64,000 nt of DNA from Naegleria gruberi (Eukaryota): assembly GCA_000004985.1 (NCBI GenBank), contig GG738848.1. One strand, given 5' to 3'. Every line of letters starts with the position of its first letter. Within the stretch, counting starts at the first letter, position 1. The notes beneath the pieces are model-generated. The model was not told the DNA's origin and made no database searches. It was given only the letters and a program-made list of their open reading frames with translations. Position numbers and translations under genes: made by a program. Positions 1 to 48,700 of the stretch are shown here, piece by piece.

Positions 1-957
1 ATATTTACATCCAACTCTTGAACTTTGTTCAAAAATTCTATATGCCATTTGGTTATACTCATCAAGTTGTTGAAGGAACTCATCTGCCAACCGATCTTCA
101 GGTATTGGAACTGTCGGTGCAGATGGAGGTTTTGTTCTCATTTCTTTTGGTAGTTCCTTTTGAGAAACAGCTCTCTTATCCAAACATTGAGGAATGTGGA
201 ATGTTAGAGAGTCTACATTCAGATACTCCCTTCCACACAAGTGGCAACAATAAGCAATAGGCTTTCCATTAATATCCCTCATAGGAGCCTTCTTTTGTGA
301 AGACGATGATCTACTCTGACTCACTGCAGTTTTTGAGACAGAATCTCTCACTGGAAGGTATTTATCAATATTTTGAGATGCTATTGTAGCTGATTTGTTC
401 GATGAATTTGATCCTATTGAACCTGAAGAACTTTCTCTCACTAGTTGAGATTTTGAATTTGAGGGAGAGGTTTTTGGAGGAGTGTATTGAACCTGACGAG
501 GAGGTGAGCAGGATCGGGGTGGTTGTATTGTTGATGATTGTTGTTGTTTTTTGGGTGATGAAGCAGAAACTGAGGGCTTGTTATTTTGTTGTTGTTGAGG
601 TTGTTGCATTGTTTGTTGATGATGTTTTGGACTATTATCAGATGGATTGCATCTCAGAAAATGTTCTCCCAATTCACTAGCCTTGAATAATTTCAAACAT
701 GACGGGCATGGATTTAGACTCTCCTGACAATACAACAATTTCGCATAAGTATTATACTTCTCAATGCTAGCCTTATCTTTAGAAGAGGAAGGCATCATCA
801 TGGAAGGCAAACCCCGAGGAGGATACATCCTCTGCAATTCGGGAATCAACTTCTGCTGTTGAGCATGCCAATTATTAGAGCATTGAAACATGTGGTCCTT
901 CAAATTTCCAAACTCCTCATTCTCTCCACAATAATAACAAATAAGCTTTGCAGACAT
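1..957 (-). CDS. C2HC-type zinc-finger protein (ZC2HC1/FAM164-like); start codon is in the window and the gene continues past the window start
   Basis: The reverse strand reads as an open frame from an ATG (complement of 955-957) to position 1 with no stop. I checked the first ~120 codons by hand (MSAKLICYYCGENEEFGNLKDHMFQCSNNWHAQQQ...). There are three C-x2-C...H-x4-5-C motifs (CYYCGEN..HMFQC; CPSCLKLF..HFLRC; CHLCGREY..HIPQC), typical of zf-C2HC_2, plus poly-Q and S-rich linkers. The ORF track does not list it because it has no stop in the window. Confidence 0.6.
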   Translation of the reverse strand, partial: MSAKLICYYCGENEEFGNLKDHMFQCSNNWHAQQQKLIPELQRMYPPRGLPSMMMPSSSKDKASIEKYNTYAKLLYCQESLNPCPSCLKLFKASELGEHFLRCNPSDNSPKHHQQTMQQPQQQQNNKPSVSASSPKKQQQSSTIQPPRSCSPPRQVQYTPPKTSPSNSKSQLVRESSSGSIGSNSSNKSATIASQNIDKYLPVRDSVSKTAVSQSRSSSSQKKAPMRDINGKPIAYCCHLCGREYLNVDSLTFHIPQCLDKRAVSQKELPKEMRTKPPSAPTVPIPEDRLADEFLQQLDEYNQMAYRIFEQSSRVGCKY

Positions 958-1772: not shown

Positions 1773-4488
1773 ATGGTCAATTTCACTACCTTTGTCAAAT
1801 CAAAAAGGAAGAGAAAAAAGGATATAACTTTTCAAGATATTCAGGAAAATTTTGATCTTCCTATCAAGGAAGCAGCCGATGCTTTACAAATTTCGTTAAC
1901 TCAACTCAAGAGAATTTGTAGAGAGAATGATATCCCTCGTTGGCCATACAGAAAGGTGAGTTTTTGCTTGTATATCACACATAACTGACAGTTATTATTA
2001 TTGTTTATCATTCCTTGTTCAACTGTACATGTATTCAATGTTACGACGATCCGCCTGTACTATTATTACATACGAAAATATTCTTAAATTGCTGTTGAAT
2101 GTTATCTCCTTCTCATTTGTTACCCAATTTGATAATTAATATTCTCTTTTTGATGGTCAAAAAACTCTTTGGATATGAAACGACCATTTGACTGTTCTTG
2201 TTGGACAAACAACGAATTCATAACATTTTAATGATGAAATGTTGTTCGACTTGTATTATACTTTTTCTATTCGAATCAAATAGTTACAAGCTCTACAAAA
2301 CAAATTACAAGATCTTCAAGATAGTTTAGCACAAGCAGATGAATTAACCAAGCAAAGAACACAAAGCAAAATAGATTCCATACATGAGGAGATTAAATTC
2401 ATTCGTGCCTATCCTAAAACAATTATTGAAAGTGGTGGCAATGGAGGAAAGAGAAATTCCATAACAAAATCCAAACGTTGGTCACTTCCATCAATGATGT
2501 CAGGAGATTCTATGAGTTCATGTGGAAGTGGAGCATCAACGAGTAACATTTTGGATCAAACCTTTGGTGGAGCTAATTCTGCTGCCAACAGACGTTCACA
2601 AAATGAAGAGGAATTCTTTAAAGATCTACAACAACGTTTGAGTAAACAATATGGTGGAATGCCTGCTGGATTAATGGGTCATGAAGAAGAGGAAGATATA
2701 GATGAAGATGAGATAATTGGTGATGCTGATGAGGATGAAGATGCTGAAAATAATAAGAAACAATCAGCAGCCAAGACGAATAATAGAAATAAGAGATTTT
2801 CAATGCCATCACTCTCTCATAATAACAGTAATAATAGTAGCAGTAGTAATATTTTGAATAGTTTAACTCCAAAGAGTAGTACTGCTAATCATTCTACAAG
2901 TGCTTTCACTACAGTCAATTCGAACACTAATCATCACCAACTTCATCATCATCAACAACAACAGTGGAATACATCCAATAATAATAATAATCAATTTAGT
3001 TATCCAACTCCATCAACAACAACGAATAATGCCACTAATAATATTATTCATCATCATCCAATTGGAAACCAATATCCACATCACCACCACCACCATCCTC
3101 AACCTCATCATGTTGGTTCTCCTCCACAACATATGACTGTTCAACATCAACACCATTCCTATGTTACACATCCACAACAAACAACTTCTAATTCGGGGCA
3201 TTCTCACGCATATCCTCCAATGGAGTCGCAAGGTCACTATGGAGTTGTTTCATCCCATCATCAGCTTCACCATTCTCATCATCATCAACACCAACCACAA
3301 CAACAACCTATCTATCATAATGTAATAGGTGGCAATAGTGGTGGTGGTCAATTGTATAATCATAATAATGTAAATGTGCCAACTCAATCAGTTTCTCCTC
3401 CACAACATTACCCAACCAATTATCAAGCCAATCAACATCAACCTCTAAATAATGTTGGCCACCTGCCTAATTCGTCAACTCAAAATTATCAACAACAGGG
3501 AATGCAAGGCCACCAAGTGATAAATCCTCAGCCAAACCAAAATAACATTGTTAGTCAACCTGTTGGTTTCGGTCATCCACAGCATGTTACGACAAGTAGT
3601 GCCCCACCTCAAAACGATCCAAATAATCAGGCAGCAATTCATAGCTTACATCACCAACCTTTGAATTCTCCCTCAAGTAGCTCAACTACAAGGGAAAGCG
3701 GTTTACCTTCAAGACAGCACGATTTCTTTTCCTCTGGATTTTCACATCACCATACTCCATTCAGTCATTCGAATAGACCTAGATCACTCAATATTAGCAC
3801 TCCATCTTCGGACTCTTATGGTTTTACTAAGTACTTACATCAAAATGGAAATTACCTGCCATCACTTGCTCAGGTTTTGAAGGAGAATGAATCTGACAGA
3901 ATGCAAGACTCACCTATAGCAGTGAATGAGCCATCACCCTTCTCAACGAGACCAACATTACCACCTGTAAATCGATCATTTGATCAACCACCAGATCTTC
4001 CAAATGATTCTCAGAGAAGTGATGCATCCAAGATTTCCCAAGCTTTAAGTATTCTTAAGAAGAAGAATACCAATGCATCCTCAACAAGCGCCTTACCACA
4101 ATCAAGTAGTGCAGGTAATTTAGAGCAGATACCAAGCAGTTCTTTCGATAATTTCCAATATTCAGGATATGGTGGAAATAATACTCATAGAGAAAATCTT
4201 CACTATCTCAGAAAGGGTGTCCACTCAACCGAGTTTGAGTATCCACCATTACAACAATATTATCAACAGTACCCAGATCAATTCATGGGTTCACAGCCAT
4301 TAACATCAACAACCCATTTCACACAACAGCAAATAGATCCAAATTCGCCAACTTCGAAAGGTATCGATGATAAGAACTCTAAATCAACAAATGGTGGTAA
4401 GGAAAACTCATCATCGGGTGGCAGCAAACTGTCCTTCCTAGAGAATTTATTCAGAAAGAAAATTCCATTCATAAGAAAGAGAAAGTAA
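1773..4488 (+). CDS. RWP-RK domain transcription factor with a long His/Gln/Asn/Ser-rich low-complexity C-terminal region; two exons, 1773..1955 and 2284..4488
   Basis: Exon 1 encodes ...FDLPIKEAADALQISLTQLKRICRENDIPRWPYRK and ends at the donor aag|gtgagt (1956). The acceptor ...aatcaaatag| at 2283 continues in frame as LQALQNKLQDLQDSLAQ..., completing the RWP-RK consensus (RWPxRK-L..L...I). It joins in phase with the 664-aa ORF 2494..4488, which carries HHHHHH, QQQQ and NNNNN tracts. The 328-nt intron is the longest in the window. Confidence 0.7.
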
Positions 4489-9650: not shown

Positions 9651-11054
9651 TCATTCGCGAAAGCTAATGCCATTCAGAAGCTTTAATTGTTTGAATTGTG
9701 AAAATACTTCATTCTGCACGAATGTAAATTGATTATGCCTAATTGATAGTGCCGTTAATTGATTCATATTAATCATATGCTTTACCCCCTGGTAAGACAA
9801 TTCATTATTGTTCACCTCGAGAGCTGTTAACTTTTCCAATTTAGTGAGATATAGTGATCCCTCATCTGTAATATAATTGTTTGAAATATCCAGTATTGTT
9901 AATTCGTTCAAATCACCCAAAGATTTCATTCCATCATCAGAAATTTGACAATCATTAACAAATAGTTCTGTCAATTGTTTAATCTCACTGATGGATTTAG
10001 CCCCATCATCACCGAATGCATTTGAAGAAATATTCAAATGTGTTAATTGACTCAATCCACTTAATTGCTTAACTCCTTTAGCACTGATACCATTCGATTT
10101 AATATCTAGCAATGTTAATTGTTTCATTTTGCTAAGCTCCTCACATTCATCGAGAATAGTACAATTATTTATGCTTAGGGAAACCAATTTGTTCATTTTG
10201 CTAATTGCATTAATTCCGTCAGGATTTATACGATCAATTGAGAGAGCTGTTAATTGGTCCAACTCGCTCAACAAGATCACCTCCTCATCACCAACCTTAT
10301 TATCACCTATATCAAGATAAGTTAGTTGTTTCATCTGACTTATGGCTTTGGCACCCTCTCCTCCAATCCTATTTGATGAAACATTTAGCCAAGTCAATGT
10401 TTTCATTTCACTAATTACTTTTGCTCCTTCTGCACCAATATAATTATATCTAATACTGAGAGATTCTAATTTTTCCAATTGGCTAATATAATTTGCTCCT
10501 TCCAACCCAATCCCATTAAAATCAACACAGAGATGAATCAAATGTTTCAATGTTCCAATTGACTTTAAACCATCCTCATTAGTAAAGTGACTTCCTAATG
10601 TGAGGTGTGTTAAATTTTTCATTAAAACAAAACCTTGAATTACCTTAGCTCCAAGAGTATTATAATTAAATGTTAGAAATTTAATTTGCACTCTTTCAAT
10701 ACTTTCCAAGAATTGACTTTTCATTAACGATTCTACTCTTTCACTATCAAACGGAACATTAAAATCCAAATAAAACGTAACTCGACTTTTGATAATATTT
10801 AAAAACTGTGTTGAAATTAATGTACAATTTTTCAAAATAAACCAATCATCCAGAAAACAAATAATTTCATAACAAATATCATCGGGAAATATTTCCTCTA
10901 TTATTTACCAAATAATACTAATATTTAACTACTATTTTCACTACTAATAATTACCCTGATGATGAATTTTTATAGCTTTACTCATTGGTTGAATTTCCGA
11001 ACTTTCACATGTAATAGAATCATTTGCAAACTCTTCTCTTTCTAATCTTTTCAT
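9651..11054 (-). CDS. F-box / RNI-type leucine-rich-repeat protein; two exons, complement(9651..10897, 10955..11054)
   Basis: The 394-aa ORF 9651..10835 carries about thirteen 24-aa repeats of the form LTxLxISxNxIGxEGAKxISxMKQLT, the ribonuclease-inhibitor-like LRR. The ORF-track start is TTG. A 57-nt intron (donor cagg|gtaatt, acceptor aataatag) joins an upstream ATG exon, MKRLEREEFANDSITCESSEIQPMSKAIKIHHQ. The junction encodes the F-box-like segment EEIFPDDICYEIICFLDDWFILKNC. Confidence 0.7.
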
Positions 11055-11151: not shown

Positions 11152-12411
11152 ATGAAAAGACACACCACAGAGGAAGCATCATCTCCATCAAAATCCAGCA
11201 AAACTGTGCCAACAGCTGCACCTTTTTCATCGGAGAGTTTGGCACAAATTTTGTGTTTTCTACATGTTGAAGATGTTGTGAGTGCTTCGATGGTTTCTAA
11301 TCAGTGGAATGCAACTTGTATTGATTATCAGGAAACTATCTGGAAGGCTGTCTGTTACAATTCATTGAATGATCTGGAAAAGTATCCATTCATGAAGAAT
11401 GTTAAAGGAGGAACATTTGATATTCAAGCTTATGAGGGAATTTATTCTTCATGGAAGGAAACTTTTGTTAAAATGTAGGTTTAAAGTTTAGCTTTCACAT
11501 AATTACTATTATCATGGTGAAGGTTTTATGGACAACTCAAGGAATTTACATCCCAATATCAAATGTATGTGAATGAAGTGTTTGCTGATGTAGAGGATAA
11601 GGAGAATATATTAGAGACCATGAAGAAGAGATCCACTCTTGCAATTCCCTACACTTTTAAAGGTCAACAACAAGAGCAAAATGAAGTATTTGGAGACGAG
11701 GGGACTGAAGAAAAGAAAGATGATGAGGAAAAAGATGAAGATGAAGAAGGAGATTGCAAAGACAATACCCCTATTGGATCAAGTAAGATTGGTGGACTTC
11801 CTGACCTACCAAAAGGAATGAAATGGCCAAATGTAATCGATGACGAAGAACAATTGCTCAAGTTTGTGTGTCAAATCGATTTGAGAGATCTCAAAAACTA
11901 TCACTCAGTTAAGGGAATATTACCAAGATGTGGCTGGTTGTTTTGCTTTATTGATTGGGAGAATTTGGAAAGTGATGACTACAAAGAACCATATTCTTTC
12001 TATTGGAATGGACCTATTGATATGCTTGAAAGGGTGAAACCAGAAGATGGATTGGAATATGAAGAGAGTAAGGTAGCTCAAATACAGTTCAAAAAGGAAG
12101 TAGTTCAACCACTCTCACCAGAAAATGCTCTTCGTATGGATGTTAACGAAAAATACTCAAGCAGTAAAGCTGATTTGGGAACATCAGTAATGGGATATCC
12201 TGAAGCAGTTCAATCAGAAGATGAAATGATTTGTGATGATCGTTATTTCATTCTCCAATATCAAAATATGTCACTGAACAACAATCTGGTTGATACTGCT
12301 GACTCTGTATTTTATTGGATGCTCCCTTTAGAAAGTCATGAAAAAATCAGAAATATCAAAGATGATAAGAAACAAATCAGAGTTCCACTATTCACAACCT
12401 TCCAATGTTGA
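11152..12411 (+). CDS. F-box protein fused to a DUF1963 (YwqG-like) domain; proposed exons 11152..11474 and 11523..12411
   Basis: Exon 1 carries an F-box-like motif (LAQILCFLHVEDVVSASMVSNQWNATCIDYQETIWK). The downstream ORF 11563..12411 carries DUF1963-like motifs (SKIGGLPDLPKGMKWP; LLKFVCQIDLRDL; GWLFCFIDWE). Both lie in the same frame, separated by one TAG. A 48-nt GT..AG intron (aaaat|gtaggt ... gtgaag|) removes that stop and keeps the frame. The alternative is two separate genes. Confidence 0.5.
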
Positions 12412-20239: not shown

Positions 20240-20312
20240 GCTGGCGTAGCTCAGTCGGTAGAGCGTTGGTCTAATAAGCCATTGGTCGCCGGTTCGATCC
20301 CGTCCGTCAGCA
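20240..20312 (+). tRNA. tRNA-Ile (anticodon AAT)
   Basis: The 73-nt cloverleaf was folded by hand. The acceptor is GCTGGCG/CGTCAGC with one G-U pair, the D stem is GCTC/GAGC, the anticodon loop is CTAATAA (AAT), and the T loop is GGTTCGATCC. There is one C-U mismatch in the T stem (50-64). No CCA is encoded and a T4 run lies 3 nt downstream. Confidence 0.8.
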
Positions 20313-25199: not shown

Positions 25200-28100
25200 T
25201 TAATAAGTTGGAGTAAAATCTTGCATTTCTGGCATGACACTTTCACTGATGGCAGCTGCATTGACACTCTTTTTTCTTTGGATTTCATTCTTTTTTGTAA
25301 AACGAAGGATCAATATCACAATAATTATGATTATAACAATTATGGTGAATACAATTACAAAAACAATTGGTATAACAATTGCAGCAACAATATTTGGTCT
25401 AAAAGCACGAGGAGGAACATCTTTTGAGTATGTACAAAATGCTTCATTCACCTGAACTAGAGTTCCATTTGTTGATGTCAACACCAAAGCATAAGGTTGA
25501 CTAGTTGTAACTGAAGCCAATTGATTCATATAAACTGCAACACTAACATATGAAGCTGCACCCAAAGAATTAACAATAACCTTTTCCAAATTATTTACAG
25601 TGTCCACTGCTCCTAAATCATTACCTCCATACACTACAAGATTTTTGAAACTTGTTCCATCAGTGGTGAATGTATTTACAATCAAATCCAAATTATTAAT
25701 GAGTGGAACAAAAGAAGAAATATCACTTGGATAATCGTACCAAGCTAAAGTTGCTTTGATCCAACTTGCACTTTCAACTTTGTAACATAATTTGAATGAT
25801 TGAGAGGAGGCAGTGAACGAATTTTCAAAGAATGTCAAGCCAACATCATTTCCAGTTTCAGTTTTCAGCAATGATCCCAAGGAAACAATACCATGACCTT
25901 CAACAGGATTTGGTTGAAAATAGGCATTTAGCTCAACTCTATCAGTTTCGTCTCCATTCAATGAAACTGTTCCTTTAGATGGAACAGCTGATTGGACCAA
26001 GAGAGCTTTAATCAAAGGTCCTGATGGGTTGGAAACTCCTCTATTCTTCTGTAAATATTGTCTTATCAAAGCTATTATTAGTGTTGAAACTTAAGTTGAA
26101 ATTGAAATAACTTACCAGCAGCTCCAGCCTTTAAAGGAATATTAAATATAATATTAAATAATTAAATACTTACCATTAGAGGTGTACTCATTGAAGTTCC
26201 TCTCTATTTTCAATGAGTTTATGTGAAAAAAGTTTAAAAAAACACAACTTACCTTTGAAAGAAGAGCAGCATCGTTTCCTTCTTTTGGACGACCAGTTCC
26301 ACATTGATTGGTAGTAATTATACCATCAGAGTGAGCACTCACAATATTTTCTCCAACTGCAACTAAATCTGGTTTAATTCTTCCTCCATCTTCATTTACC
26401 TTAATTAACTTGTAAAAATCAAAGAAAACATACCAGCAGGTCCTCTACTCGAAAATGAAGCGATATTCATCTCATTGTAAGCTTTAGTATCTTTAAACTG
26501 ATTTTCAACATAACTTGGGCAACAGTATGATCTCACATTGGTAGATAATGATAAACAACATTCTTCAGGTCCAGCAAAATTTAGAGATGCTTCCTTAATC
26601 TTTGTATAGTAATCTTCATAATACAGTGAGGTAAGAATTCCACTATTTGAAGAACGAGATGATCCAACACTAATGATATTCTTTGAGTTTGATTGCTCTG
26701 TGAGAGTTCCTTGTTTGGCGAGTGCTCCATCATTTCCTTTTAAGTGTTTAGAATAAGAAATTCCAATTTGGAAACAACTTACCTGCAGCAAAGAGAATAA
26801 CTGCATCCTGTTTATCCCACAAATACTTGTCAAGGTTATAAGCTGAAGAAGTGTAAAAGTTTGTAATGGAACAACATGTTTCAGAACCAAACAATCTGTT
26901 ACACTGGGCATCAGTAATCGAATCACCAGAATTGAATGAATCAAATGCATTGACCACTCTACAATTCTTACAATCATAAGAACAAGTAACATAGACAGAA
27001 GCAGAGGTTCCGTAACTGTTGGAGAAAATTCTTGCGCCGTAATTATATCCTTGTTTAAAGAGAACTGTTAAATCATTAGACATGAACATATTGTCATTGT
27101 TTGAATCTTTCATATCAACAAAGAATAGTTTTGAAGCTGGAGCCATTCCATGATATTGATTGACAGTGTCAGAAAAATCTGTATTTTCCATTGAGCCAGA
27201 GATGGAACCTGCTACGTGAGTACCATGTCCAGAAACATCATCCTTAAAATCTGTAGTAATCTTTTGATTATTAAATTGGAATGTAATTGTATTATATGAC
27301 ACAATCTTTCTATGATTTTCATCAAAGACATTGACATTGGAAGAATCTCTAAAGAAGCAATGATCGTGATCAATACCAGTATCACTCAATCCAATTATCT
27401 GTCCCTCTCCATAAATTCCAAGATCATAGAATGGACTAGCTCTTGCCACAGAGTTGGCATTAACTGATTGTGAGATGGAAACTCCATTCTTATTGAAAAA
27501 GCCAAGTTGATGGACCTTTTCAACATAGTGTACGTTTGGGTGACTCTTCAAAGTTTGTCCAACTCTTGCAGAAACTAGAGGTGAAAATTGAATTTCGAAA
27601 TGACTATCTGAAATTACTTCAATTGGGAAGAAATCCCTTCCTTTGATAAGTTGACTTCCCAATAATTCATTAAGATTATTGGCTATTTGTTGAGCTGATT
27701 CATTTTGCTGTTCAGTTGTGAGAGAATCCAACGAATGGGTAAGAGAAATTGAAGCCCTCAAATATCTTGGAGTGGTCAGAGATCTCTTTGAGCTATTCAA
27801 ATATTGGATTGAAATGTGTTCAATTTCTGCAAAATCTAAAATTGACTTGAATCTTTCTTCATAGTTTCCAATAAACTCTAAATCATCCTTAAAAGCCAGC
27901 AATTGACTCAACTTTCCAACAACTTTAAACACACCATGATTTAAAAAATTTCCTACTCTTGTCAAAGGATGATTCCTCTCCCTTTCACTCTTAATCTTTA
28001 TAATATATTCAGCAATTTGTTCTTCTTGTTTAATTCTTCTTTTCAAATTACCATGAAGAATGTTATTCTCTGAATTAAGTATATAATTATTACCCTCGCC

Positions 28101-28319
28101 TTCTATTCTATTATTACTATTCATCATGGCCTTAAAACTAATAAATTCTTCACTTATTGATGGTGCTGCCAAAGCCCTCTCGGTCATCATTGTTGTTATG
28201 ATAATCAGCAGAAAACAACTTAGCACCAAATTCTTCATCATCATTCTTGTTGCACTAATTCCTTCTGAATTGTTGCAACTCTTCCTCAGCTTTGAACACT
28301 TAGAAGAATTGTCTCTCAT
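25200..28319 (-). CDS. Subtilisin-like serine protease (peptidase S8) with N-terminal signal peptide and C-terminal transmembrane anchor; at least 6 exons
   Basis: Exon A (26783..28319) holds a signal peptide, DTGIDHDHCFF (Asp) and HGTHVAGSISGS (His). A 46-nt intron (donor gcag|gtaagt) leads to GNDGALAKQG... then ...SFSSRGPA. Further 44-85-nt introns give DGGRIKPDLVAVGENIVSAHSD... then RGTSMSTPLM (Ser) then AGAAALIRQYLQ... This runs into the ORF 25200..26069, which ends in a hydrophobic TM segment (IVAAIVIPIVFVIVFTIIVIIIIIVILIL). Confidence 0.8.
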
Positions 28320-28611: not shown

Positions 28612-31600
28612 TTAGAAAAGGGTATAACTGTCTGGGAATCTCATCTTCTTATTATTTTTCAAGAGAGTGGACCAATGGTTGAATCCCATCTCTCCAGTGA
28701 GCTTGGATATGAGATCATACAATTTGGATTCATTTTCATTTTGTTCTCCCAATGATTTAATCAACTTTTGAAGGGCAACTGTTTGATATTTAAAGTATAA
28801 ATCATATTGGACATCTGTGAAGAGGAATTTCTCTGTTGGATCAACAAATTGTCTGAGGGTCTTCATTGTTTGCTTGATTAGAGTATCTCTGTCCGAAATT
28901 TCTGAGCCAGTTGTATCATCTAACAACAAATCGAGTTTGGTTTGCAATGAATTAATGAGTGCATCCTTCTTCTTATCCATTTCTTTACATTTGAGTTGGT
29001 ATGCTTGTTGTTCGAGTTCAGATTCTTCATCTTCGTTCTTTGTCTTATTCTTTGGTTGACTACCATAGTGAATAATCAAATCAGAAATGTTAGCGACTTC
29101 AGTGACACTATCAACAAGTTGAGTAATTTGATTGACGAGATCCTTCTTTTCAGTGCTGGTCTTGAGTTGTTCCTTGAGAATATCAAGCTTCAATAGAAGA
29201 AGTCCCAAATACTTTGGATTGTTCTCTAAAAGTGTGTTGACAAATGGTAAAGCTTCAGCTTTGAGCTTTTTAAGATAGGTTACTTGTTGTTCAATAATGT
29301 AGTCTTGGAACTTTTGTTCTGCCGTTCTTTCATCAGCCTTATTTTCCTTTTCAGGAGTTGATTTTTCACTTGCCAAGAAAGAAGGTGGAACCACAAAGGT
29401 AAGTGGAACAGTGGCAACATCAACACCTTGATATTGGAATTTACCAGTCAATCTATCGCCAGCCTTAACCTCCTTTGGTAAATCCTTTTCAACTCCAGAA
29501 TATCCCAAGGCATAGGAATTGCTTCTACCATAACTCAACTTGAATTTTTCATCTTGTTTATCAACATCAGTAAGAGCACCATTGATGTGCTTGAATAATT
29601 TGAGTGAAATTGGTTTGGCAAGTACGTGAGTAATGACGAGAGGATAATTCTTGAGCTTTTGTAGGGTTGCAATATTGTCATGTCTGAATTGTGCTCTGAC
29701 AACATAGTCACCCTTCTTCAACTTGAATTTTTCAGGATGGTAATCAGAAACCTTGACTAATTTCTTATTCTTATTGAAGATCATAAGCATTCTTGATTCA
29801 ATATTGCATTCATAGAGTAATTTGGAGAGAACTGGTAGTGAGGTGATAATTTCATGATCTGATGCCATCTTGAGATTATAGTCAAGTATCATTTCATAGC
29901 TACACTTTTCAGTATCAAAATAGGTATTTCTTGGATTGTTTTGAATTTGAATGAGTTTTGAATCTTCACTATTGGTTGGAGAGAGTGTTTCTTTCCAAGA
30001 ATCAAGTTTTGCAGAAATATTCATTTCCATATTTCTTAATGATGAAGTGAGTTGTATCTTTCTAGCAACTTCACTTCCATCAAAGAATATCTCATCATTG
30101 GAAATATTGATAGAGTCGATTCCATAGAATTCTACATCAACTGTAATTTTACATTGTCCAGGAGAGGACCAGAATTGACCAAATGTCAATTCTAGAGTTC
30201 TATTTGGAACAGTCTTAATATTGTGAGTGGAAACATCTGACTGAGAAACTTGAATGAATTTTCTGGTGTCATATTTAGAATAGGCTTCCCTGTCCAAAAG
30301 TTGTGTAGCATGGAAGACGAGCATTTTTTGTGTGTCCATTTCATCAGCTCTCAATGATAACTTGCAGTATTGAATAGAGCATGAAGGGGTGCTAATATAT
30401 TGTCTATAGAGTTCTCCTGATTTCATTTGATAGGTGAAAGTCTTTCTATATTCTACTTCGGTATCAGATTTGACTAGCTTGTAAGGTTTCATTACAGTAA
30501 TTGGAACAGAGAAAACTGGACCGAATTCCATATTATCACAATCAAGAGCATCAATTCTGGCAAAATAAACATTATTTTCGTCTAAAATTTCAGTATTAAT
30601 TTGAACAACGAATGAGAATGTTCCTGGTATGTGTAAGAATTCTGGTGCTTTGATGAATTTTGGAGTCTCATTTGCTTTGTGATCTGTGACTGTATTTGCA
30701 TTATTGCTAGAAAAAATAGGTACAAGTTTGAATCTCTTTTCAAACTCGATCTTGCTCATATTCTTTGTTTTCTCATTGTAGACAAGATCAATACTGACTG
30801 TATAGAATTGGGTTGAGTGAGTCTCCTCAAATTCTCTTAAATAAATGCCTCTTGCATTATTTCTTTGTGGAATTGAAATTACATATCTATAATCGTCAGT
30901 GTCTGGATTGAATGGCTTTTGCTTTTCAATAAATTTAAAGGCGTCCAAAACTTGAACTAATCCTGAACCAATAGATAATGGATGATGGCTATGCTCATCC
31001 ACATTCTTTTCATCATTTTCATGATTATTTCTTGCAGTATTTTCCAAAACTTTTTTGATGTAATAAGGATTCCATTTTCTTCCCTCAGCTATTAAGGCAC
31101 TATAAAGCAATGCAAGACAACCGGAACATTGAGGTGAAGACATGGAAGTTCCATTACATCGATTTACAGATTGTAGAGTATAGTTTGGTACACTGGTAAT
31201 AGCAGCACCCAAGCTAGAAATAGTTGGGCACAATTGACCATCCTCTGTTGGACCTCTGGAAGACCATGTAAATTGGGAATCTGGAACTGTCTCAGAAAGT
31301 CCATACTGAGCTTTTATCATAGACTGGGTTACATAAGCTCCAACACCTATACATGAGTCAGATAAGGAAGCAGGGGCACCACAAGTTGTATAGTTTGGTC
31401 CAGCGTTACCAGCTGAGGTGACAAATGTAACATTGTGATTGTAAACCAATTCTTCCAACTTTTCTCTAAAGATACCAGTGTTAGCAAGAGAGCTTGGCTC
31501 GCCGTATGACATATTAATAATGGAACACTTATTTTCATAGCAGGAAATTAAGCCTCTATTGAGAGCTGTTCCAGTTTCCATAGAACCCAATCTATTATCA

Positions 31601-32532
31601 CCAATTTTGCATGAAACAATTTGGCAACCAGGTGCTGCACCGTTCAATTCTGGTTTATCTGGGAAGTGAGCGCCAACAATTCCTGCAACGTGTGAGCCGT
31701 GAGATCCTGAGGTAGTAACAATAGAAAGCAAGTTACCATTATCATAAATCTTGAAAGAATAGTTCAATAAATCAAGTTCTGTGAAGGTGGAATATTCGTA
31801 ATTCAGGCTATAGTCACTCATCAACTTTTCATTACTCAAATCGACAACTTGTTCATCAAAACTAGAGGTTTCAAAAATATTCTTCTCAGCATCATAACTA
31901 TCATGAACAACCACAGCTCTATACACGTTGGCCTTCTCGTCTAAAAATACAATACAATCCAAAAGTGGACCAGAGTCTTCATAATTCTTCATTAAATCGT
32001 TCAATAAATCGAGTTGTTTTTCTAATTCTGAAAGTTCCTTCTTTGATTTTTCATCGGTAGAATTTTTCAATAAATTAGATTTTTCCTTAATTTCATTCAC
32101 TTTCTCTGTTTGTTTCTTTTGGAATTGTTTTTTTCTTTCTTCCTTAACTCTATCAATCAATGGTTTGGGATACAATTCGAAAACACTCTTTATACCAACG
32201 TGATACTCATTGGAACTATTTAATTCCTTCCATTTTGCATCAATTTTTAATTTCCTTCCTGTCTTTCCAATAACAATTCCATTTGCATCAGGGTTGACAA
32301 TAGTTTTGGTATCTACATCACCGGATCCTGTACAATCAACAACATCAATGATTTTTCTTTTACCATCCGTTGTCAAGCCATTTAAACCTGGAGCTCCGAT
32401 ATCAATTCCAGTGTCAAATATTGCAACTCTTACTCCTCTACCATCGTAGTTTGGATAAAGTTTTAAAAATTCAAGGCCTTGAACTTCACTCTTTGGATTA
32501 AGACCTTCAACAGGGTATTCACTTTGTGGCAT
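28612..32532 (-). CDS. TPP2: Tripeptidyl-peptidase II (S8 family giant exopeptidase); single exon, 1306 aa
   Basis: ATG at the complement of 32530-32532. The N-terminal subtilase domain has DTGIDIGAPGL, HGSHVAGIVGAHFP and GTSMSSPQCSG. The long TPPII-type C-terminal region gives a length close to human TPP2 (~1250 aa). Confidence 0.9.
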   Translation of the reverse strand: MPQSEYPVEGLNPKSEVQGLEFLKLYPNYDGRGVRVAIFDTGIDIGAPGLNGLTTDGKRKIIDVVDCTGSGDVDTKTIVNPDANGIVIGKTGRKLKIDAKWKELNSSNEYHVGIKSVFELYPKPLIDRVKEERKKQFQKKQTEKVNEIKEKSNLLKNSTDEKSKKELSELEKQLDLLNDLMKNYEDSGPLLDCIVFLDEKANVYRAVVVHDSYDAEKNIFETSSFDEQVVDLSNEKLMSDYSLNYEYSTFTELDLLNYSFKIYDNGNLLSIVTTSGSHGSHVAGIVGAHFPDKPELNGAAPGCQIVSCKIGDNRLGSMETGTALNRGLISCYENKCSIINMSYGEPSSLANTGIFREKLEELVYNHNVTFVTSAGNAGPNYTTCGAPASLSDSCIGVGAYVTQSMIKAQYGLSETVPDSQFTWSSRGPTEDGQLCPTISSLGAAITSVPNYTLQSVNRCNGTSMSSPQCSGCLALLYSALIAEGRKWNPYYIKKVLENTARNNHENDEKNVDEHSHHPLSIGSGLVQVLDAFKFIEKQKPFNPDTDDYRYVISIPQRNNARGIYLREFEETHSTQFYTVSIDLVYNEKTKNMSKIEFEKRFKLVPIFSSNNANTVTDHKANETPKFIKAPEFLHIPGTFSFVVQINTEILDENNVYFARIDALDCDNMEFGPVFSVPITVMKPYKLVKSDTEVEYRKTFTYQMKSGELYRQYISTPSCSIQYCKLSLRADEMDTQKMLVFHATQLLDREAYSKYDTRKFIQVSQSDVSTHNIKTVPNRTLELTFGQFWSSPGQCKITVDVEFYGIDSINISNDEIFFDGSEVARKIQLTSSLRNMEMNISAKLDSWKETLSPTNSEDSKLIQIQNNPRNTYFDTEKCSYEMILDYNLKMASDHEIITSLPVLSKLLYECNIESRMLMIFNKNKKLVKVSDYHPEKFKLKKGDYVVRAQFRHDNIATLQKLKNYPLVITHVLAKPISLKLFKHINGALTDVDKQDEKFKLSYGRSNSYALGYSGVEKDLPKEVKAGDRLTGKFQYQGVDVATVPLTFVVPPSFLASEKSTPEKENKADERTAEQKFQDYIIEQQVTYLKKLKAEALPFVNTLLENNPKYLGLLLLKLDILKEQLKTSTEKKDLVNQITQLVDSVTEVANISDLIIHYGSQPKNKTKNEDEESELEQQAYQLKCKEMDKKKDALINSLQTKLDLLLDDTTGSEISDRDTLIKQTMKTLRQFVDPTEKFLFTDVQYDLYFKYQTVALQKLIKSLGEQNENESKLYDLISKLTGEMGFNHWSTLLKNNKKMRFPDSYTLF

Positions 32533-32708: not shown

Positions 32709-32782
32709 TACCGACAATGGGGCTCGAACCCACGACCCCAGGATTAGAAGTCCTGTGCTCTATCCAACTGAGCTATGACGGC
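32709..32782 (-). tRNA. tRNA-Arg (anticodon TCT)
   Basis: The reverse complement folds as a 74-nt cloverleaf. The acceptor is GCCGTCA/TGTCGGT with one U-U mismatch and one G-U pair, the D loop is AGTTGGATA, the anticodon loop is CTTCTAA (TCT), and the T loop is GGGTTCGAGCC. It has a discriminator A, no CCA, and an oligo-T downstream on that strand. Confidence 0.75.
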
Positions 32783-36371: not shown

Positions 36372-38231
36372 TTATTCTCTCAAAATATCGACTGTGGCAT
36401 AAATTTCGTCGGTAATTCTATCATAATTGTCTTGAAGTTTCTTCCATTCTTCACCTTCCTTCTTCTTCAATTGAGAAAGTGTCTTAATAATGTCGAACTT
36501 TTCAGCTTCTCTCTTTTCAATCTTATTAATGTGGACAATTGACTTGGCATTCAAGTTTGTTAATTCAGTAACAATATCCTTCTTGATCATTTCGCTCAAT
36601 TCTTGTCTCTTCTTATCAATAGATTCGATAGTTGATTGATTATTGGAGGCAACAGCTTGTTCGACTTCTTGATACCAGTTATCTCTTTCAATGAATTTTT
36701 CAACATAGAGTTCAGTCAATTCATGTGCAGTAGTTTCACGTTCATTTTCAAGTTCCTCATCAGACTTGGAAATTGAAAGATCCATTCTGACATAAACCAT
36801 GACGAACAAGCAGAAACCAAAAAGAGCAGAAATGACCAACAATGGTTCAAAGTAAACAGCAGAAGCTGGAAAAGTGTAGGAAAGGAGGAAGTTTTCATTG
36901 TGTTCTGGGACAACATTCTTCTTATTAATAACAGAAACAGTTCTACCAGAAACATCGAGATAGGTCTTCAAATTTTCCTTTGATTCAGAGTCAATTGGGA
37001 ATGAAGTTTTGAATTCAACATCATCAGCACCTTCTGGAACAACAACTCTAAGAGTGAGATCCTCAACTGGAGCATCGAATGGAACTGAGAATTTGTATCT
37101 CAATTTGTGCTTTTCTGGATTATTCATGGCAACAGTAAGGTAATCATTGATTGGTAAATTGTATCCAATATAGAAACGAATCTTCCAACCTCCAAAAAGT
37201 GGGAATCTTGGATGGAAATCAACTTCAAGATTCTTTCCAGAAACACGAATATCCGAAGATGAAATGTTACCAATTCTATCTCTAAAGTAAATATCATTAG
37301 CCAAGAGTGGCAAAGTAGCAGTAATCTTTCTGAAAGAAGCTGGTGAAGTTTGTCCAGGATTCTTAGAGTATTCAAATCTAGAGAATGGACCAACTAACTT
37401 GGCACCAGTGTGCTTAATTTCGTAGTGTTCTTCGACAGCCAAATTACCCCAGTGAGAAATTTCAACAGTTCTTTCAACTGAGGAAACAACAAAACATGGT
37501 CTATCGTTAACATAGTGCAATCTAACACCAGCAGTAGTGAATGGAACAACATCACGGAAAGGACCATATTGAATACCATTTCCTTTGTTTTCAACAGGCT
37601 TAACAGTGTTAGTGTATGATTCAACAGCTGATGTTCCGAGTTTGACAAGGGTAATTTGTGATTTAACCTTGTATGGTGTGAAGAAGTAGGCATTATCCTC
37701 ATAAACAACCTTTTGGTGTTCATCTTGTTTGATTTCCTTTGGGAATGGAGAAATAACATTGGTGAGGGCAATATTGACAACCAAATCAACCTTTTGCTTT
37801 GGAGACAATGGTGAAGCGAGTTCAATTTCATAGAACAAAGCATCCCTATAATTATGATCAAAATATTAATCATGATGACATTATTAAAAATCCCAAGCTA
37901 ATAAAACTAATACTTACTTGTTCAATTCATCATTGAATTTATGCTTTGGAACATTCAATGTTGTAGATTGTTGGCGAGCAGAAACATAGGCAACATTATT
38001 TAAAGCGAGTTCCTTTGGGAAAGCCAAATAGAAGAATTTAGCATCGGATGATCCAACATTTTGAATAGTTAATTTCACTTCATGTCTAACAACAACATTT
38101 TGTGTGGTATCAATACTTCTATCTATCGACAAGATTTCAATATCCGAATAAACGTTGGATTTAGCTTGAGTAAAAACAGCCAAAAGGCAAACAATTAAAA
38201 ACACAGATAGCGTGGTTTTAGTGATCATCAT
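36372..38231 (-). CDS. OST1: Ribophorin I (oligosaccharyltransferase subunit OST1); two exons, complement(36372..37845, 37918..38231)
   Basis: Exon 1 gives a signal peptide (MMITKTTLSVFLIVCLLAVFTQA) and the start of the luminal domain. The donor aa|gtaagt and a 72-nt intron ending ttatag join in phase to DALFYEIELASP... The protein aligns with ribophorin I over its length (FRDVVPF, VEISHWGNLAVEE, HTGAKLVGPFSRF, FPLFGGWK, TM, charged C-tail). Confidence 0.85.
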
Positions 38232-45709: not shown

Positions 45710-48700
45710 AATGTTTGGTTCGCAAGTAGGGGGCGTAAATGACTTGGCAGGGGAGTATCCAACACTTGATGTGAGCACTCCAAGATCCTCGGGAGGTTCT
45801 TTCGCCACAACATCTTCTTCATCATCCAATGTTTCGAATATTGTTGATATTTTCAATTCGAAAGAAAAATTAATAGTTATTGTTGATTCCATTGACAATT
45901 ATAAAAATTCAGAAATCTACGGATCATCAACAGTTGCTTCTTCTAATAATTCAACAAATGATCAAGCAGGTGTTTATGTTCGAGTCAATTTTGACAATCA
46001 AGTTAGAATAACAGGTGTTAAAACATTTTACAGTAATACAAATCCTTGGAATATTAAATTAGGTAAAAGAGTTATTATTCCGTATGGAATTAGTGCTTTA
46101 CAAAGTGGAAAGTTATCAATTGAAGTATTCGAAACACAGACAGGTGAAGCCAAAGTACAAATAGATAAAAGATTGGGAAAGACTGAACCAATCAAAATTA
46201 ATGTAAGTTTTTGTTTTTTTGAATGAATTCATATTTATTGATGCTTTGACTAATTTGTAAAATAATAATAAATTATTATTAAAATATTTTACAAAATTAA
46301 AATTGGAAAATATTAGGTATTCGATATGAATCATCCAGTTGAATTTTCACTCAATTTAAGTGATGATGTTCAAGTACAATTTAGATTTATGAGAGCTCCA
46401 CTTGCCAATAAGGGACATTATAAAGCAATGGAAAGAAGTATCTATTCACTTCTTTTGAAAATGAAGCAATATGGTGAAAATGCACTTTCTAGAATTAATA
46501 ATCCAGAAGAAGATGATGATGATTACGATCCAGAGAAGGAAGAGGAAGAAATCTCAACAAGACAACCAAAAATACTCAAATCTGGATTCATGTTAAAAAG
46601 AGGACAGGGTAATTTTGCCAAGTGGGCTCGTCGTTATATTGAATTGGATGATACACTCTTATTGAAATATTATGCATCTGATTCAGAGGAAGATAGGAAA
46701 GAACCTCTAGGTATTGTTGTTATTGACAGTGATGCAATGGTTTATGTGCCACGAGATGAAGCCATGGAAAAGGAATTACAAAAACAAAAGAATATTGAAA
46801 AATCAAAGGAATTTGTCTATTACAATCAGGCTCTATTGGATGAAGATGATGCACAGAACAGTTTTGAGAGTATTGACGATTTGGAAGCTGACGAACAACA
46901 AACCATCAACATTATTAGAAGAAAACGTAGAGAATTGGAAAGAAGAGGTCCAATGCTTGATTTGGATGAATTATATCCTTATTATTTACTTGCTTCTAGT
47001 GAAAGTGAAAGAGATAGAACACTCATCATTGATGAAATCATTGAATCAATTGAAAAGGAAGAGTCTGGTGAATCAGTCACTATTAAATCTCACACAAAGG
47101 AAGAGAGAAAATTGGAAAAATTCTTAAATTTGGTAAATCCAAAAGGTTTCAAGTTTTCCCTTCAATGTCAAACTAGTTTCAGTAACGGAAAGGAACATAA
47201 TTTGAGAGAGCATCAATTCATTACTGATTCTGAAGAAGCTAGAAAGGAATGGATAACTGCTATCTGTGAACACATCTTACTCGAAGAAAAGAGAACTGAT
47301 TTGAGAGATCCTGAAGAAGAAATTCACTCCAAGATTTTCCCATATCTGGACTTTTTCGAATTATTAACAACTGAAACACCACTTCAAGAAGTTGTCAGAT
47401 GTTTCAATTCCTTCCAACTCAATGTTTCTGAAAAGATGGTTGCTCCTCTGTTAACACTCTTTGATGCCTCTGATTCACCAAAGACAAGTGTGGAATTTGT
47501 CAAAAGTGCCATCTCTGTCGAAGTTGACAGTGCAGAATCTGCTGGTACCCTTTTCAGAAGAAACAGTTTATCATCCAAATTGGTAACCTTATTCTTTAAA
47601 GTTTTTGGTTTGCGTTATCTCACCAAAACTATTAAACCATTCCTCATGAAACTCATCAAGGAAAATAAGAGTTATGAAATTGATGACGAAAAGGTTGCAT
47701 CAGATATTGCTGATAAGAATGCTGAATTATTGAAGGGAATTTGTGATGAAGTGTTAAATTTGATTATCAATTCAAAGTATGAATGTCCACCTCAAATCAG
47801 AGAAGTCCTAGCTCATACTTTTGAAGAATCTGAGCAAAAGTATGCAGCAAGTGGTGAATTGTGTGTTGGTGGTTTGCTGTTTTTGAGATTCTTCTGTCCT
47901 GCCCTTGTTACTCCACAACTTTTTGGTTTAATTAAGGATTCACCACCAAAGAATGTTCAACGTACATTAACATTATTGACAAAGATTCTCCAAAATATTG
48001 CCAATCAAATTAGAACTAGTGAAAGTAAGAAGGAAAAATTCATGAAGAGAGTTGAGGCCTATACTGGTGCTCAAATTGACAGTGTGAAGGATTTCTTGAG
48101 AAGTATGTCAGAAGAACCAAAGAAATATGTCAGAGAAACTAAGGAAATAGTTCCTGATCTCATCAAATTACAAAGTTTGGAATTTATTGCTCACCACTTT
48201 GGTGAAGCATTTACCAAAAAGTATTACAATTTCGAAAATGATATCATTACTGAGGCCACATTCCACAAGTTTGCCAATCGTTTGGCACTCATCTCTAAAG
48301 CAGGTCTCGATAAGAAAATCAAACAACTTTCACAAGATGATCCAAATGCCCTGGTGAGACCTTCAACTAAATCCACTTCATCCAATACTACTGGCGGTAG
48401 TGCTGGGAGTAGCAGGCCCAATCTCAGTATTTCAACTCAAAATCCATCGCCTTCTAAGACGATAAACTCACCCACTACCAAATCTCACTCTCCACACACT
48501 GTTTCCTCACCAAAACCAAAATGTGCCTCTCCTTCCACTTCTCCACTCACAACAACTGATAAACAACAACCAACCACTCCTCGAGGAATTACTTATAAGA
48601 ATCGTTCACCATCTGTCTCTGTAAACGATGTAGGACGTCTCACAAAGAATGTGAAAAAGATTGGTGGAACTGAATGGGACAGAAAAAGAGAAAGGAGAGC

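What the first reader, a model, noticed from the sequence alone, without database searches (positions are those of the whole stretch)
11152..12411. F-box fused to a bacterial-type DUF1963 (YwqG-like) domain via a 48-nt intron
The F-box ORF (11152..11478) and the DUF1963-like ORF (11563..12411) lie in the same frame, separated only by one TAG. A GT..AG intron (11475..11522) removes that stop exactly. DUF1963 is mainly a bacterial family (established knowledge, recalled from its GGxPxLPxxxxWP and Q-I/L-D-L motifs). Its recruitment as the substrate-binding end of an SCF F-box protein would be unusual.
Basis: partly seen in the sequence, partly recalled or inferred. Interest (0 to 1): 0.5.

Follow-up and report, generated by a model that had tools for sequence, protein, structure and literature searches.

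The report
Naegleria F-box protein with YwqG-type domain
This is a real two-exon gene of the amoeba Naegleria gruberi, already in the databases. It joins an F-box, the handle that plugs a protein into a ubiquitin ligase, to a mostly bacterial peptide-binding domain, a rare combination that no paper I could find describes.

Summary
The window is Naegleria gruberi NEG-M. Splicing 11152..11474 to 11523..12411 (intron 11475..11522, 48 nt, GTAGGT...AG) gives a 403-aa protein. It is identical to the annotated protein EFC49202.1 / XP_002681946.1 / UniProt D2V1Q5 ("F-box domain-containing protein").

The two ORFs are separated by four in-frame stops, not one TAG. All four lie inside the intron.

Comparison supports the intron well. 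Three homologous loci from environmental Naegleria-like genomes have an intron at the same codon and phase, 38, 44 and 41 nt long. None of these is a multiple of 3. The peptide encoded just upstream of the second ORF's ATG is conserved, and that Met is not.

The C-terminal domain is a YwqG-family DUF1963/TYPP domain: Pfam 56.9 bits, and the only significant PDB fold match is 1PV5. The N-terminus is a divergent F-box: borderline in Pfam, but every PDB hit of the family profile is an F-box protein.

A Stenamoeba (Amoebozoa) transcript encodes WWE + F-box + DUF1963 in the same order, so the architecture is a small eukaryotic family.

The most likely function is an SCF substrate receptor that binds an extended peptide. 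This parallels FBXO3 (F-box + SUKH). Interest is modest.

The parts
11152..11474 (+). Exon 1. It runs from the start ATG at 11152 and encodes aa 1-107 plus the first two bases of codon 108. It holds the F-box and a short conserved linker ending ...SWKETFVK(M).
   Evidence: ORF. The spliced product equals EFC49202.1. The orthologue L002 is 72% identical over this exon.
11224..11355 (+). Divergent F-box, about aa 25-68 (PFSSESLAQILCFLHVEDVVSASMVSNQWNATCIDYQETIWKAVC).
   Evidence: Pfam F-box 21.1 bits (cut-off 20.5) and F-box-like 21.7 bits (cut-off 24.3). The homologue P0013 scores 35 bits on F-box-like and the Stenamoeba homologue 35.9 bits on F-box. For the family profile, all 18 PDB hits with E<=1 are F-box proteins. 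Foldseek top hits for the low-confidence model are almost all F-box chains, but none is significant.
11475..11522 (+). Spliceosomal intron, 48 nt, phase 2 (it splits codon AT|G). Sequence GTAGGT...GGTGAAG, 71% A+T. It holds four in-frame stops at 11476, 11482, 11500 and 11518.
   Evidence: Homologous loci have an intron at the same position: L002 478..515 (38 nt), L003 1806..1849 (44 nt), L006 2380..2420 (41 nt).
11523..12411 (+). Exon 2. It encodes the last base of codon 108, aa 109-403 and the stop TGA at 12409..12411.
   Evidence: Against the 98.8%-identical strain L001 this exon has 6 synonymous and 2 non-synonymous differences.
11524..11562 (+). Coding segment FYGQLKEFTSQYQ, upstream of the ATG (11563) that opens the mechanical second ORF.
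   Evidence: It is conserved as FYGQLKQFTSQYQ in L002, where the following Met is Ala. So 11563 is not the start of an independent gene.
11677..11757 (+). Acidic low-complexity stretch, about aa 160-186 (EGTEEKKDDEEKDEDEEGD...), just before the TYPP domain.
   Evidence: Read from the sequence and modelled at pLDDT <50. Acidic stretches also occur in L002, L003 and Stenamoeba.
11761..12408 (+). YwqG-family DUF1963 / TYPP domain, about aa 188-403, with both repeats. Repeat 1 has G193, S195, GGLP 198-201, DLP and Q225. Repeat 2 has G332-Y-P, Q338 and Q353.
   Evidence: Pfam PF09234 at 56.9 bits. AlphaFold2 pLDDT is about 90. Foldseek against PDB gives 1PV5 YwqG as the only significant hit (E 3.8e-7, prob 1.00, 252 columns). 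Hallmark residues are conserved against 71 YwqG-type relatives.

Best explanation
A two-exon nuclear gene of Naegleria gruberi encodes a 403-aa FBXO-type F-box protein. It has four parts in order: a divergent N-terminal F-box, a short conserved linker, an acidic low-complexity stretch, and a complete YwqG-family TYPP (DUF1963) domain.

Proposed mechanism: the F-box docks on Skp1 and so joins a Cul1-Rbx1 (SCF) ubiquitin ligase. The TYPP domain acts as the substrate-recognition end. It would bind an extended or disordered peptide of a client protein in its conserved Gln-lined pocket, as the related TYPP domain of PDCD2/Tsr4 binds the disordered N-terminus of uS5.

Shown here:
- the gene structure;
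- the conserved intron;
- the identity of both domains;
- purifying selection;
- the same architecture in an amoebozoan transcript.

Inferred and not tested:
- Skp1 binding;
- peptide binding;
- ubiquitination;
- the identity of the substrate.
For: Organism and annotation:
- Neighbouring ORFs and the spliced product match N. gruberi NEG-M proteins exactly. The product is EFC49202.1 / D2V1Q5.

Intron:
- The boundaries are GT-AG, and all four in-frame stops lie inside it.
- Four homologous loci have an intron at the same codon and phase, with lengths 48, 38, 44 and 41 nt.
- In the three others the exons are in different frames, and splicing restores a collinear protein: 64% identity over 310 aa for L002 and a 427-aa product for L003.
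- The peptide upstream of ATG 11563 is conserved and that Met is Ala in L002.
- Two other short GTAAGT..AG introns in the window (72 and 114 nt) reproduce annotated proteins exactly.

TYPP domain:
-.

F-box:
-.

Same architecture elsewhere:
- Stenamoeba stenopodia transcript ORF P0020 has WWE + F-box + DUF1963.
- It aligns collinearly with the window protein, aa 28-372 against 153-505, E 5e-16.
- In neighbour-joining bootstraps the two TYPP domains fall in a group of 8 or fewer of 141 sequences in 83% of 200 replicates.

Selection:
- Exon 2 has 6 synonymous and 2 non-synonymous differences against a 98.8%-identical strain.

Functional analogy:
- The TYPP domain is predicted to bind peptides or act like a chaperone (PMC4275035).
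- The PDCD2 TYPP domain is required for binding uS5 (PMC7736825).
Against: - No transcript data for this locus were available, so splicing rests on annotation and comparison.
- The F-box is weak. It scores 0.6 bits above the Pfam cut-off, falls below the F-box-like cut-off, lacks the usual Leu-Pro start (it has Phe-Ser), and is modelled at pLDDT 40-70.
- The fold matches to F-box chains are individually non-significant (E >= 0.38).
- Skp1 binding is untested.
- No YwqG-family protein has a known ligand.
- The paralogue's F-box has a large acidic insert and no Pfam F-box hit.
- Exon 1 shows 1 synonymous and 2 non-synonymous differences against L001, too few to judge.
Confidence: 0.7

Rival explanations
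1. There are two separate genes. One is a 108-aa F-box-only protein (11152..11478). The other is a stand-alone 282-aa YwqG-like protein translated from ATG 11563, as prokaryote-style gene callers annotate it.
For: Metagenome gene callers call the two ORFs separately in L001, L002, L003 and L006. Stand-alone YwqG proteins of about 260-300 aa are the norm in bacteria, and horizontally acquired ones exist in yeast and Entamoeba.
Against: - Only 84 nt separate the ORFs.
- The 13 codons before ATG 11563 are conserved at protein level, and the Met is replaced by Ala in L002.
- Intron position and phase are conserved in four loci while the length varies.
- The Stenamoeba transcript is one continuous ORF.
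- The reference annotation joins the two ORFs.
Confidence: 0.04
2. The gene is spliced as proposed, but the N-terminal helices are a degenerate F-box that no longer binds Skp1. The protein would then act as a YwqG/TYPP-type chaperone or adaptor without ubiquitin ligase activity, or in a non-SCF Skp1 complex.
For: - The Pfam scores are borderline and the Leu-Pro start is missing.
- The structure models have low confidence in this region.
- The paralogue has a long insert in the F-box region and no Pfam F-box hit.
- The characterised TYPP proteins (PDCD2, Tsr4) are chaperones, not ligase subunits.
Against: - Every hit of the family profile in the PDB is an F-box protein aligned over its F-box.
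- Close homologues pass Pfam cut-offs: P0013 at 35 bits and Stenamoeba at 35.9 bits.
- The Stenamoeba protein adds a WWE domain. From general knowledge, that domain is typical of ubiquitin-ligase proteins.
- The F-box exon is 72% identical between orthologues.
Confidence: 0.2
3. The DUF1963 ORF is bacterial contamination, or a very recent and non-functional bacterial insertion in the assembly.
For: DUF1963 is predominantly bacterial. Most of the 596 relatives found look like bacterial YwqG-type proteins of about 290 aa.
Against: - G+C (about 32-34%) matches the flanks.
- The ORF sits inside a 712-kb scaffold between eukaryotic genes.
- It carries a spliceosomal intron.
- It recurs with the same flanks in an independent metagenome assembly.
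- It has diverged orthologues and paralogues with intact ORFs, and it is under purifying selection.
- Its nearest relatives are other F-box-linked eukaryotic copies.
Confidence: 0.01

Closest known systems
YwqG family of the TYPP superfamily (Pfam DUF1963, PF09234; B. subtilis YwqG, PDB 1PV5), as defined by Burroughs & Aravind 2014 (PMC4275035)
   Same: - Two-repeat all-beta domain.
- GGxP motif and conserved Gln in repeat 1; GxP and Gln in repeat 2.
- Pfam score well above the cut-off.
- The fold matches 1PV5 and nothing else in the PDB.
   Different: - Eukaryotic and intron-containing.
- Preceded by an F-box and an acidic linker.
- The N-terminal fusions listed for the family are C-type lectin, ankyrin, BRCT, TM and WGR, all bacterial. 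No F-box is listed.
- The C-terminal repeat is more divergent: the Pfam match covers positions 1-161 of 216.
FBXO3 / SKIP16 and fungal F-box + SUKH proteins (Zhang, Iyer & Aravind 2011, PMC3113570)
   Same: The logic is the same. A protein-binding domain that is mainly bacterial was acquired by eukaryotes and placed C-terminal to an F-box, where the substrate-recognition module of an SCF ligase sits. FBXO3 is also among the best sequence matches of the F-box region.
   Different: The substrate-end domain is SUKH, not TYPP. The two folds are unrelated. FBXO3 is widespread in plants and animals, whereas this family was seen only in Naegleria-like genomes and one amoebozoan.
PDCD2 / PDCD2L / Tsr4 (eukaryotic TYPP-domain chaperones of ribosomal protein uS5)
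   Same: Same domain superfamily. It gives the only experimental precedent for what a TYPP domain does, which is to bind a disordered N-terminal region of a client protein.
   Different: A different TYPP family. There is no PDCD2_C Pfam hit at E<=1 and no MYND insert. PDCD2 proteins have no F-box and act as chaperones, not ligase subunits.
Horizontally acquired stand-alone YwqG genes in Lachancea (Kluyveromyces) thermotolerans and Entamoeba (Rolland et al. 2009, PMC2715888)
   Same: They are YwqG-family genes in eukaryotes, interpreted as bacterial transfers, duplicated and under purifying selection.
   Different: Those are single-domain proteins 38-48% identical to Bacillus YwqG. The Naegleria gene is fused to an F-box, has an intron, and groups with another F-box-linked eukaryotic copy.

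Membership tests
F-box proteins (Pfam PF00646 / PF12937) | Sequence match to the curated F-box profile at or above its gathering score | tested here: inconclusive
   PF00646 scores 21.1 bits against a cut-off of 20.5, which passes barely. PF12937 scores 21.7 against 24.3, which fails. Homologues score higher: P0013 at 35.0 bits on PF12937 and Stenamoeba P0020 at 35.9 bits on PF00646.
F-box proteins (Pfam PF00646 / PF12937) | A family profile recovers bona fide F-box proteins specifically, aligned over their F-box | tested here: met
   A profile of four family N-termini was searched against PDB sequences. All 18 hits with E<=1 are F-box proteins (GID2/SLY1 4e-4, FBXO3 1.7e-3, FBXW11, beta-TrCP, FBXW7, FBXO31 and others).
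F-box proteins (Pfam PF00646 / PF12937) | Three-helix F-box fold | tested here: inconclusive
   Helices are predicted at aa 27-36, 45-52 and 57-77, but pLDDT is 40-70. Nearly all of the top 50 Foldseek hits are F-box chains (Cdc4, FBXO31, Fbw7, beta-TrCP, cyclin F and others), with E >= 0.38.
F-box proteins (Pfam PF00646 / PF12937) | Binds Skp1 and assembles into an SCF complex | not testable with these tools
   This needs pull-down or two-hybrid assays with N. gruberi Skp1, or a multimer structure prediction.
YwqG family, TYPP superfamily (Pfam DUF1963 PF09234) | Match to PF09234 above its gathering score | tested here: met
   56.9 bits against a cut-off of 23, E 5e-15, aa 195-344. The paralogue scores 63.8 bits.
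YwqG family, TYPP superfamily (Pfam DUF1963 PF09234) | GGxP motif and highly conserved Gln, in two repeats (PMC4275035) | tested here: met
   Repeat 1 has G198-G199-L-P201 and Q225. Repeat 2 has G332-Y-P, Q338 and Q353. These align with columns conserved in 82-100% of 71 relatives.
YwqG family, TYPP superfamily (Pfam DUF1963 PF09234) | Fold of B. subtilis YwqG (PDB 1PV5) | tested here: met
   The AlphaFold2 model has pLDDT of about 90 over aa 190-403. Foldseek against PDB gives 1PV5 at E 3.8e-7, prob 1.00, 252 columns, TM 0.50 on the target. The next hit has E 0.54. A sequence-only phmmer search of the PDB did not find 1PV5.
PDCD2 / PDCD2L / Tsr4 families of TYPP | PDCD2_C profile match; MYND insert (PDCD2); role with uS5 | tested here: not met
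   No PDCD2_C or MYND hit at E<=1. The best relatives are YwqG-type. The protein is not filed under these families.
Spliceosomal (U2-type GT-AG) intron | GT...AG boundaries, and removal yields an uninterrupted ORF | tested here: met
   GTAGGT...AG, 48 nt, holding all four in-frame stops. The product equals the annotated protein.
Spliceosomal (U2-type GT-AG) intron | Position conserved in homologues while sequence and length vary; splicing needed to keep the frame | tested here: met
   Four loci have phase-2 introns at the same codon, with lengths 48, 38, 44 and 41 nt. Three of these are not multiples of 3.
Spliceosomal (U2-type GT-AG) intron | Spliced junction observed in RNA | not testable with these tools
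   No reads or ESTs were available. The only transcript-level support is the continuous ORF in the Stenamoeba Trinity transcript, which is a different species.

The most novel reading that the evidence does not exclude
F-box-TYPP proteins could be an undescribed class of SCF substrate receptors shared by Heterolobosea and Amoebozoa. In this reading, a bacterial-type, chaperone-like peptide-binding domain (YwqG family) has been turned from holding client proteins to marking them for degradation. The targets might be proteins with exposed basic or disordered tails, such as unassembled ribosomal proteins. The acidic linker and the PDCD2-uS5 precedent hint at this. The WWE domain of the Stenamoeba member could link the system to poly-ADP-ribose signalling.
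Probability: 0.12. Interest if true: 0.6.

Novelty: new variant of a known kind. Interest (0 to 1): 0.3.

Why it matters
No ligand or function is known for any YwqG-family (DUF1963) protein. An F-box fusion gives a testable hypothesis. It places the domain where substrate-recognition modules sit, so it predicts that the domain binds a specific protein or peptide. Finding that substrate in Naegleria or Stenamoeba would also inform the large bacterial family.

It is also another example, beside FBXO3/SUKH, of eukaryotes building ubiquitin-ligase receptors from mainly bacterial binding domains.

In practical terms, the N. gruberi paralogue appears mis-annotated, and prokaryote-style gene calling on metagenomes splits these genes in two.

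The gene model itself is not new, and the biological surprise is moderate.

Tried and rejected
- **Stop-codon reassignment (ciliate-type read-through of TAG):** rejected. The gap also has TAA twice and TGA in frame, and the organism is Naegleria.
- **Alternative GT..AG introns:** five other frame-preserving candidates of 75-195 nt exist, but their donors are poor (GTTAAA, GTATCC). They would also delete conserved residues.
- **Sequence-only search of the PDB with the full protein:** it found only a spurious low-complexity match and not 1PV5. The fold search was needed.
- **Word-indexed homology searches:** the first two returned almost nothing beyond the protein's own fragments.
- **Foldseek against afdb50:** this would have listed eukaryotic homologues with organisms, but the library was not available.
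- **Structure predictions:** A separate exon-1 model stayed at low confidence, pLDDT 54.
- **Tree building:** Biopython neighbour-joining timed out, so I wrote a numpy version. Strict clade tests (all Naegleria-type sequences monophyletic, with or without Stenamoeba) had support of 6% or less, because three of the sequences are partial. Only the looser 'small group' measure and the nearest-neighbour lists are informative.
- **Supplement of PMC4275035:** it was searched for Naegleria TYPP members, but the stored file is truncated.
- **Naegleria genome paper:** it is not in the library, so genome-wide intron statistics could not be cited.
- **Neighbouring gene:** my model of the F-box-LRR gene and one other spliced model did not match any annotated protein exactly.

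Full report
**Where the window comes from.** Composition is even at 29-37% G+C and long ORFs are densely packed. Several ORF translations are identical to proteins of Naegleria gruberi strain NEG-M on one 712,659-bp scaffold. These are Spb1 rRNA methyltransferase EFC49201.1, tripeptidyl-peptidase II EFC49355.1 and EFC49358.1.

**The observation.**
- ORFs 11152..11478 (108 aa) and 11563..12411 (282 aa) exist on the + strand in the same frame.
- A GT at 11475 and an AG at 11521-11522 bound 48 nt. Removing them gives a 1,212-nt ORF of 403 codons.
- The statement that only one TAG separates the ORFs is wrong. The in-frame translation of the gap reads M*V*SLAFT*LLLSW*, with stops at 11476 (TAG), 11482 (TAA), 11500 (TAA) and 11518 (TGA).
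- All four stops lie in the proposed intron. The acceptor follows the last one directly, as expected for non-coding sequence.
- Of six frame-preserving, stop-free GT..AG combinations, only this one has a consensus-like donor, GTAGGT.

**The gene model is already annotated.** The 403-aa spliced product is found letter for letter in the protein collection. It is EFC49202.1 / XP_002681946.1 / UniProt D2V1Q5_NAEGR, named 'hypothetical protein NAEGRDRAFT_62658' by NCBI and 'F-box domain-containing protein' by UniProt.

**Independent support for the intron and the fusion.** A full HMMER scan of 1.84 billion representative proteins returned fragments that prokaryote-style gene callers had cut at the same place. 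Their contigs gave three further loci.
- **L002** (1,100 bp, ENA metagenome) is an orthologue, 64% identical over 310 residues once spliced. Its exon 1 ends ...WKETFVKM. Its intron, 478..515, is 38 nt (GTAGGT...GAAG), and exon 2 is in a different frame.
- **L003** (4,640 bp) comes from the same metagenome as L001, a strain 98.8% identical to the window. It is a paralogue with a 44-nt intron, 1806..1849 (GTAAGT...ATAG). It gives a 427-aa protein ending in a DUF1963 domain of 63.8 bits.
- **L006 and L005** carry a third type with a 41-nt intron, 2380..2420 in L006.

In all four loci the intron interrupts the same codon after its second base, just after the conserved W-K-x-x-(F/Y) linker motif. 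The intron sequences are unrelated beyond their ends. Three of the four lengths are not multiples of 3, so only splicing keeps the protein in frame.

The 13 codons between the acceptor and ATG 11563 (FYGQLKEFTSQYQ) are conserved in L002 (FYGQLKQFTSQYQ). The Met that opens the mechanical second ORF is Ala there. This rules out an independent gene starting at 11563 about as firmly as DNA comparison can.

Two more short GTAAGT..AG introns in the window, 72 nt in ribophorin I and 114 nt in a RasGAP, reproduce annotated NEG-M proteins exactly. Short introns of this type are therefore normal here, and 48 nt is at the short end.

Against the near-identical strain L001, exon 2 has 6 synonymous and 2 non-synonymous differences. 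Exon 1 has 1 and 2, and the intron has none. No RNA data for this locus could be examined.

**The C-terminal domain.**
- Pfam DUF1963 scores 56.9 bits against a cut-off of 23, over aa 195-344.
- An AlphaFold2 model built on 78 sequences has pLDDT of about 90 over aa 190-403.
- Its only significant match among solved structures is B. subtilis YwqG, 1PV5: E 3.8e-7, probability 1.00, 252 aligned columns. The next hit has E 0.54.
- The hallmarks given by Burroughs & Aravind (PMC4275035) are present in both repeats. Repeat 1 has GGLP 198-201 and Q225. Repeat 2 has G332-Y-P, Q338 and Q353. These sit in columns conserved in 82-100% of 71 relatives.
- That paper unifies DUF1963/YwqG with Tsr4, PDCD2 and PDCD2L as the TYPP superfamily. 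[quoted passage not shown] It lists its fusion partners as C-type lectin, ankyrin, BRCT, TM and WGR, without an F-box, and proposes peptide binding or a chaperone-like role.
- Experimentally, the PDCD2 TYPP domain is required for binding ribosomal protein uS5, and Tsr4 recognises an unstructured N-terminal region of uS5 (PMC7736825).
- The window protein is not a PDCD2-type member. It has no PDCD2_C or MYND hit.

**The N-terminal domain.** On its own the F-box call is borderline. PF00646 scores 21.1 bits against 20.5, and PF12937 scores 21.7 against 24.3. The usual Leu-Pro start is Phe-Ser. Three things strengthen the call.
- Homologous exon-1 products score higher: P0013 at 35.0 bits and the Stenamoeba protein at 35.9 bits.
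- A profile of four family N-termini, with no known F-box sequences added, was searched against all PDB sequences. It returned 18 hits with E<=1, and every one is an F-box protein aligned over its F-box (GID2/SLY1, FBXO3, FBXW11, beta-TrCP, FBXW7, FBXO31 and others).
- The low-confidence exon-1 model (pLDDT 54) draws almost only F-box chains among its top 50 Foldseek hits, although none is significant.

I accept it as a divergent F-box. Whether it binds Skp1 is untested.

**Distribution and origin.**
- Of the 150 best relatives, only the Naegleria-type sequences and one other carry an F-box.
- That other sequence is P0020, a complete ORF from a Trinity transcript of Stenamoeba stenopodia (Amoebozoa; EukProt). 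Its domains are WWE + F-box + DUF1963.
- It aligns collinearly with the window protein from the F-box through the linker to the end of the TYPP domain, E 5e-16.
- In a crude neighbour-joining analysis of 141 TYPP domains, the five nearest neighbours of each F-box-linked sequence (four of the five tested; the truncated L006 copy is the exception) are the other F-box-linked sequences. Naegleria and Stenamoeba fall together in a group of 8 or fewer sequences in 83% of 200 bootstraps. Strict clade tests fail because half of these sequences are partial.
- The remaining relatives look like bacterial YwqG proteins. Examples are an Anaerolineae MAG protein and IMG 'uncharacterized protein YwqG' entries, some fused to ankyrin repeats.
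- This points to a small eukaryotic F-box-TYPP family. It probably derives ultimately from a bacterial YwqG gene and is older than the N. gruberi lineage. Whether it passed vertically or between amoebae is open.
- Transfers of YwqG genes into yeasts and Entamoeba have been proposed before (PMC2715888).
- No hit from N. fowleri or N. lovaniensis appeared in any search. Clustering and the word index limit what that absence means.

**How it most likely works.** By position and analogy the protein is an FBXO-type substrate receptor.
- The F-box binds Skp1 and thereby Cul1-Rbx1.
- The TYPP domain, at the substrate-recognition end, binds an extended peptide of a target in its Gln-lined pocket.
- The acidic stretch before it (aa 160-186) may favour basic clients.
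- The WWE domain in the Stenamoeba homologue is, from general knowledge, typical of ubiquitin-ligase proteins that read poly-ADP-ribose. This fits a ligase context.

The domain identities and their order are shown here. Every binding step is inferred.

The main rival (confidence about 0.2) is that the F-box is degenerate and the protein acts as a plain TYPP adaptor or chaperone. Separate genes (about 0.04) and contamination (about 0.01) are effectively excluded.

**Comparison with what is known.** The closest conceptual precedent is FBXO3/SKIP16, together with fungal proteins that independently fused an F-box to a SUKH domain. SUKH is another mainly bacterial protein-binding domain recruited as the substrate end of an E3 (PMC3113570). 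No paper in the searchable library mentions F-box together with YwqG. None of the papers found with the terms DUF1963 or TYPP, where I examined them, mentions an F-box fusion.

**Verdict.** The gene model is already public. The F-box-TYPP architecture is a new variant of the known FBXO theme. Interest is modest (0.3). Its main value is a testable handle on the unknown function of the YwqG family.

Noticed in passing
window 9651..11054, minus strand: The divergently transcribed upstream neighbour also looks like an F-box protein. Exon 1 is 11054..10955, a putative 57-nt intron (GTAATT...AATAG) is 10898..10954, and exon 2 (10897..9651) encodes 'EEIFPDDICYEIICFLDD...' followed by LRR_6 repeats. 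My 448-aa model is not identical to any protein in the collection, so the reference model differs or is absent.
   Followed up: partly
L003 1366..2693; NEG-M protein P0158 (615 aa, on a 427,589-bp scaffold): N. gruberi has a paralogous F-box-like + DUF1963 gene. In the NEG-M annotation its exon 1 is joined to the upstream membrane-protein gene, and the model stops at the unspliced TAA. The DUF1963 exon is therefore left out, which is probably a mis-annotation.
   Followed up: partly
window 37846..37917 (minus) and 46203..46316 (plus): Two further short GTAAGT..AG introns of 72 and 114 nt. Splicing them reproduces exactly the annotated ribophorin I (EFC49357.1) and RasGAP (EFC49209.1).
   Followed up: yes
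window 12747/12748; L001 1694..1885: The 98.8%-identical environmental strain carries 192 extra bases (a multiple of 3) at this point, downstream of the gene. They have no copy elsewhere in the window. It could be an indel in a neighbouring gene or an assembly difference.
   Followed up: partly
window 20240..20312 (+) and 32709..32782 (-): Two tRNA genes, tRNA-Ile (AAT) and tRNA-Arg (TCT), lie between protein-coding genes.
   Followed up: no
window 26405..28319 and 28612..32532, minus strand: There are two adjacent subtilase-type genes. One is a complete tripeptidyl-peptidase II (1306 aa). Next to it is a shorter Peptidase_S8 ORF that overlaps another ORF (26405..26992) in a different frame, which suggests an unresolved intron or a decayed duplicate.
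   Followed up: no
window intron 11475..11522, and the homologous introns in L002, L003 and L006: The donor GTA(A/G)G sits in phase 2, so an in-frame TAG or TAA follows the exon directly in all four loci. Intron retention would therefore always yield an F-box-only protein of about 108-147 aa. This may be no more than a side effect of the donor consensus.
   Followed up: no
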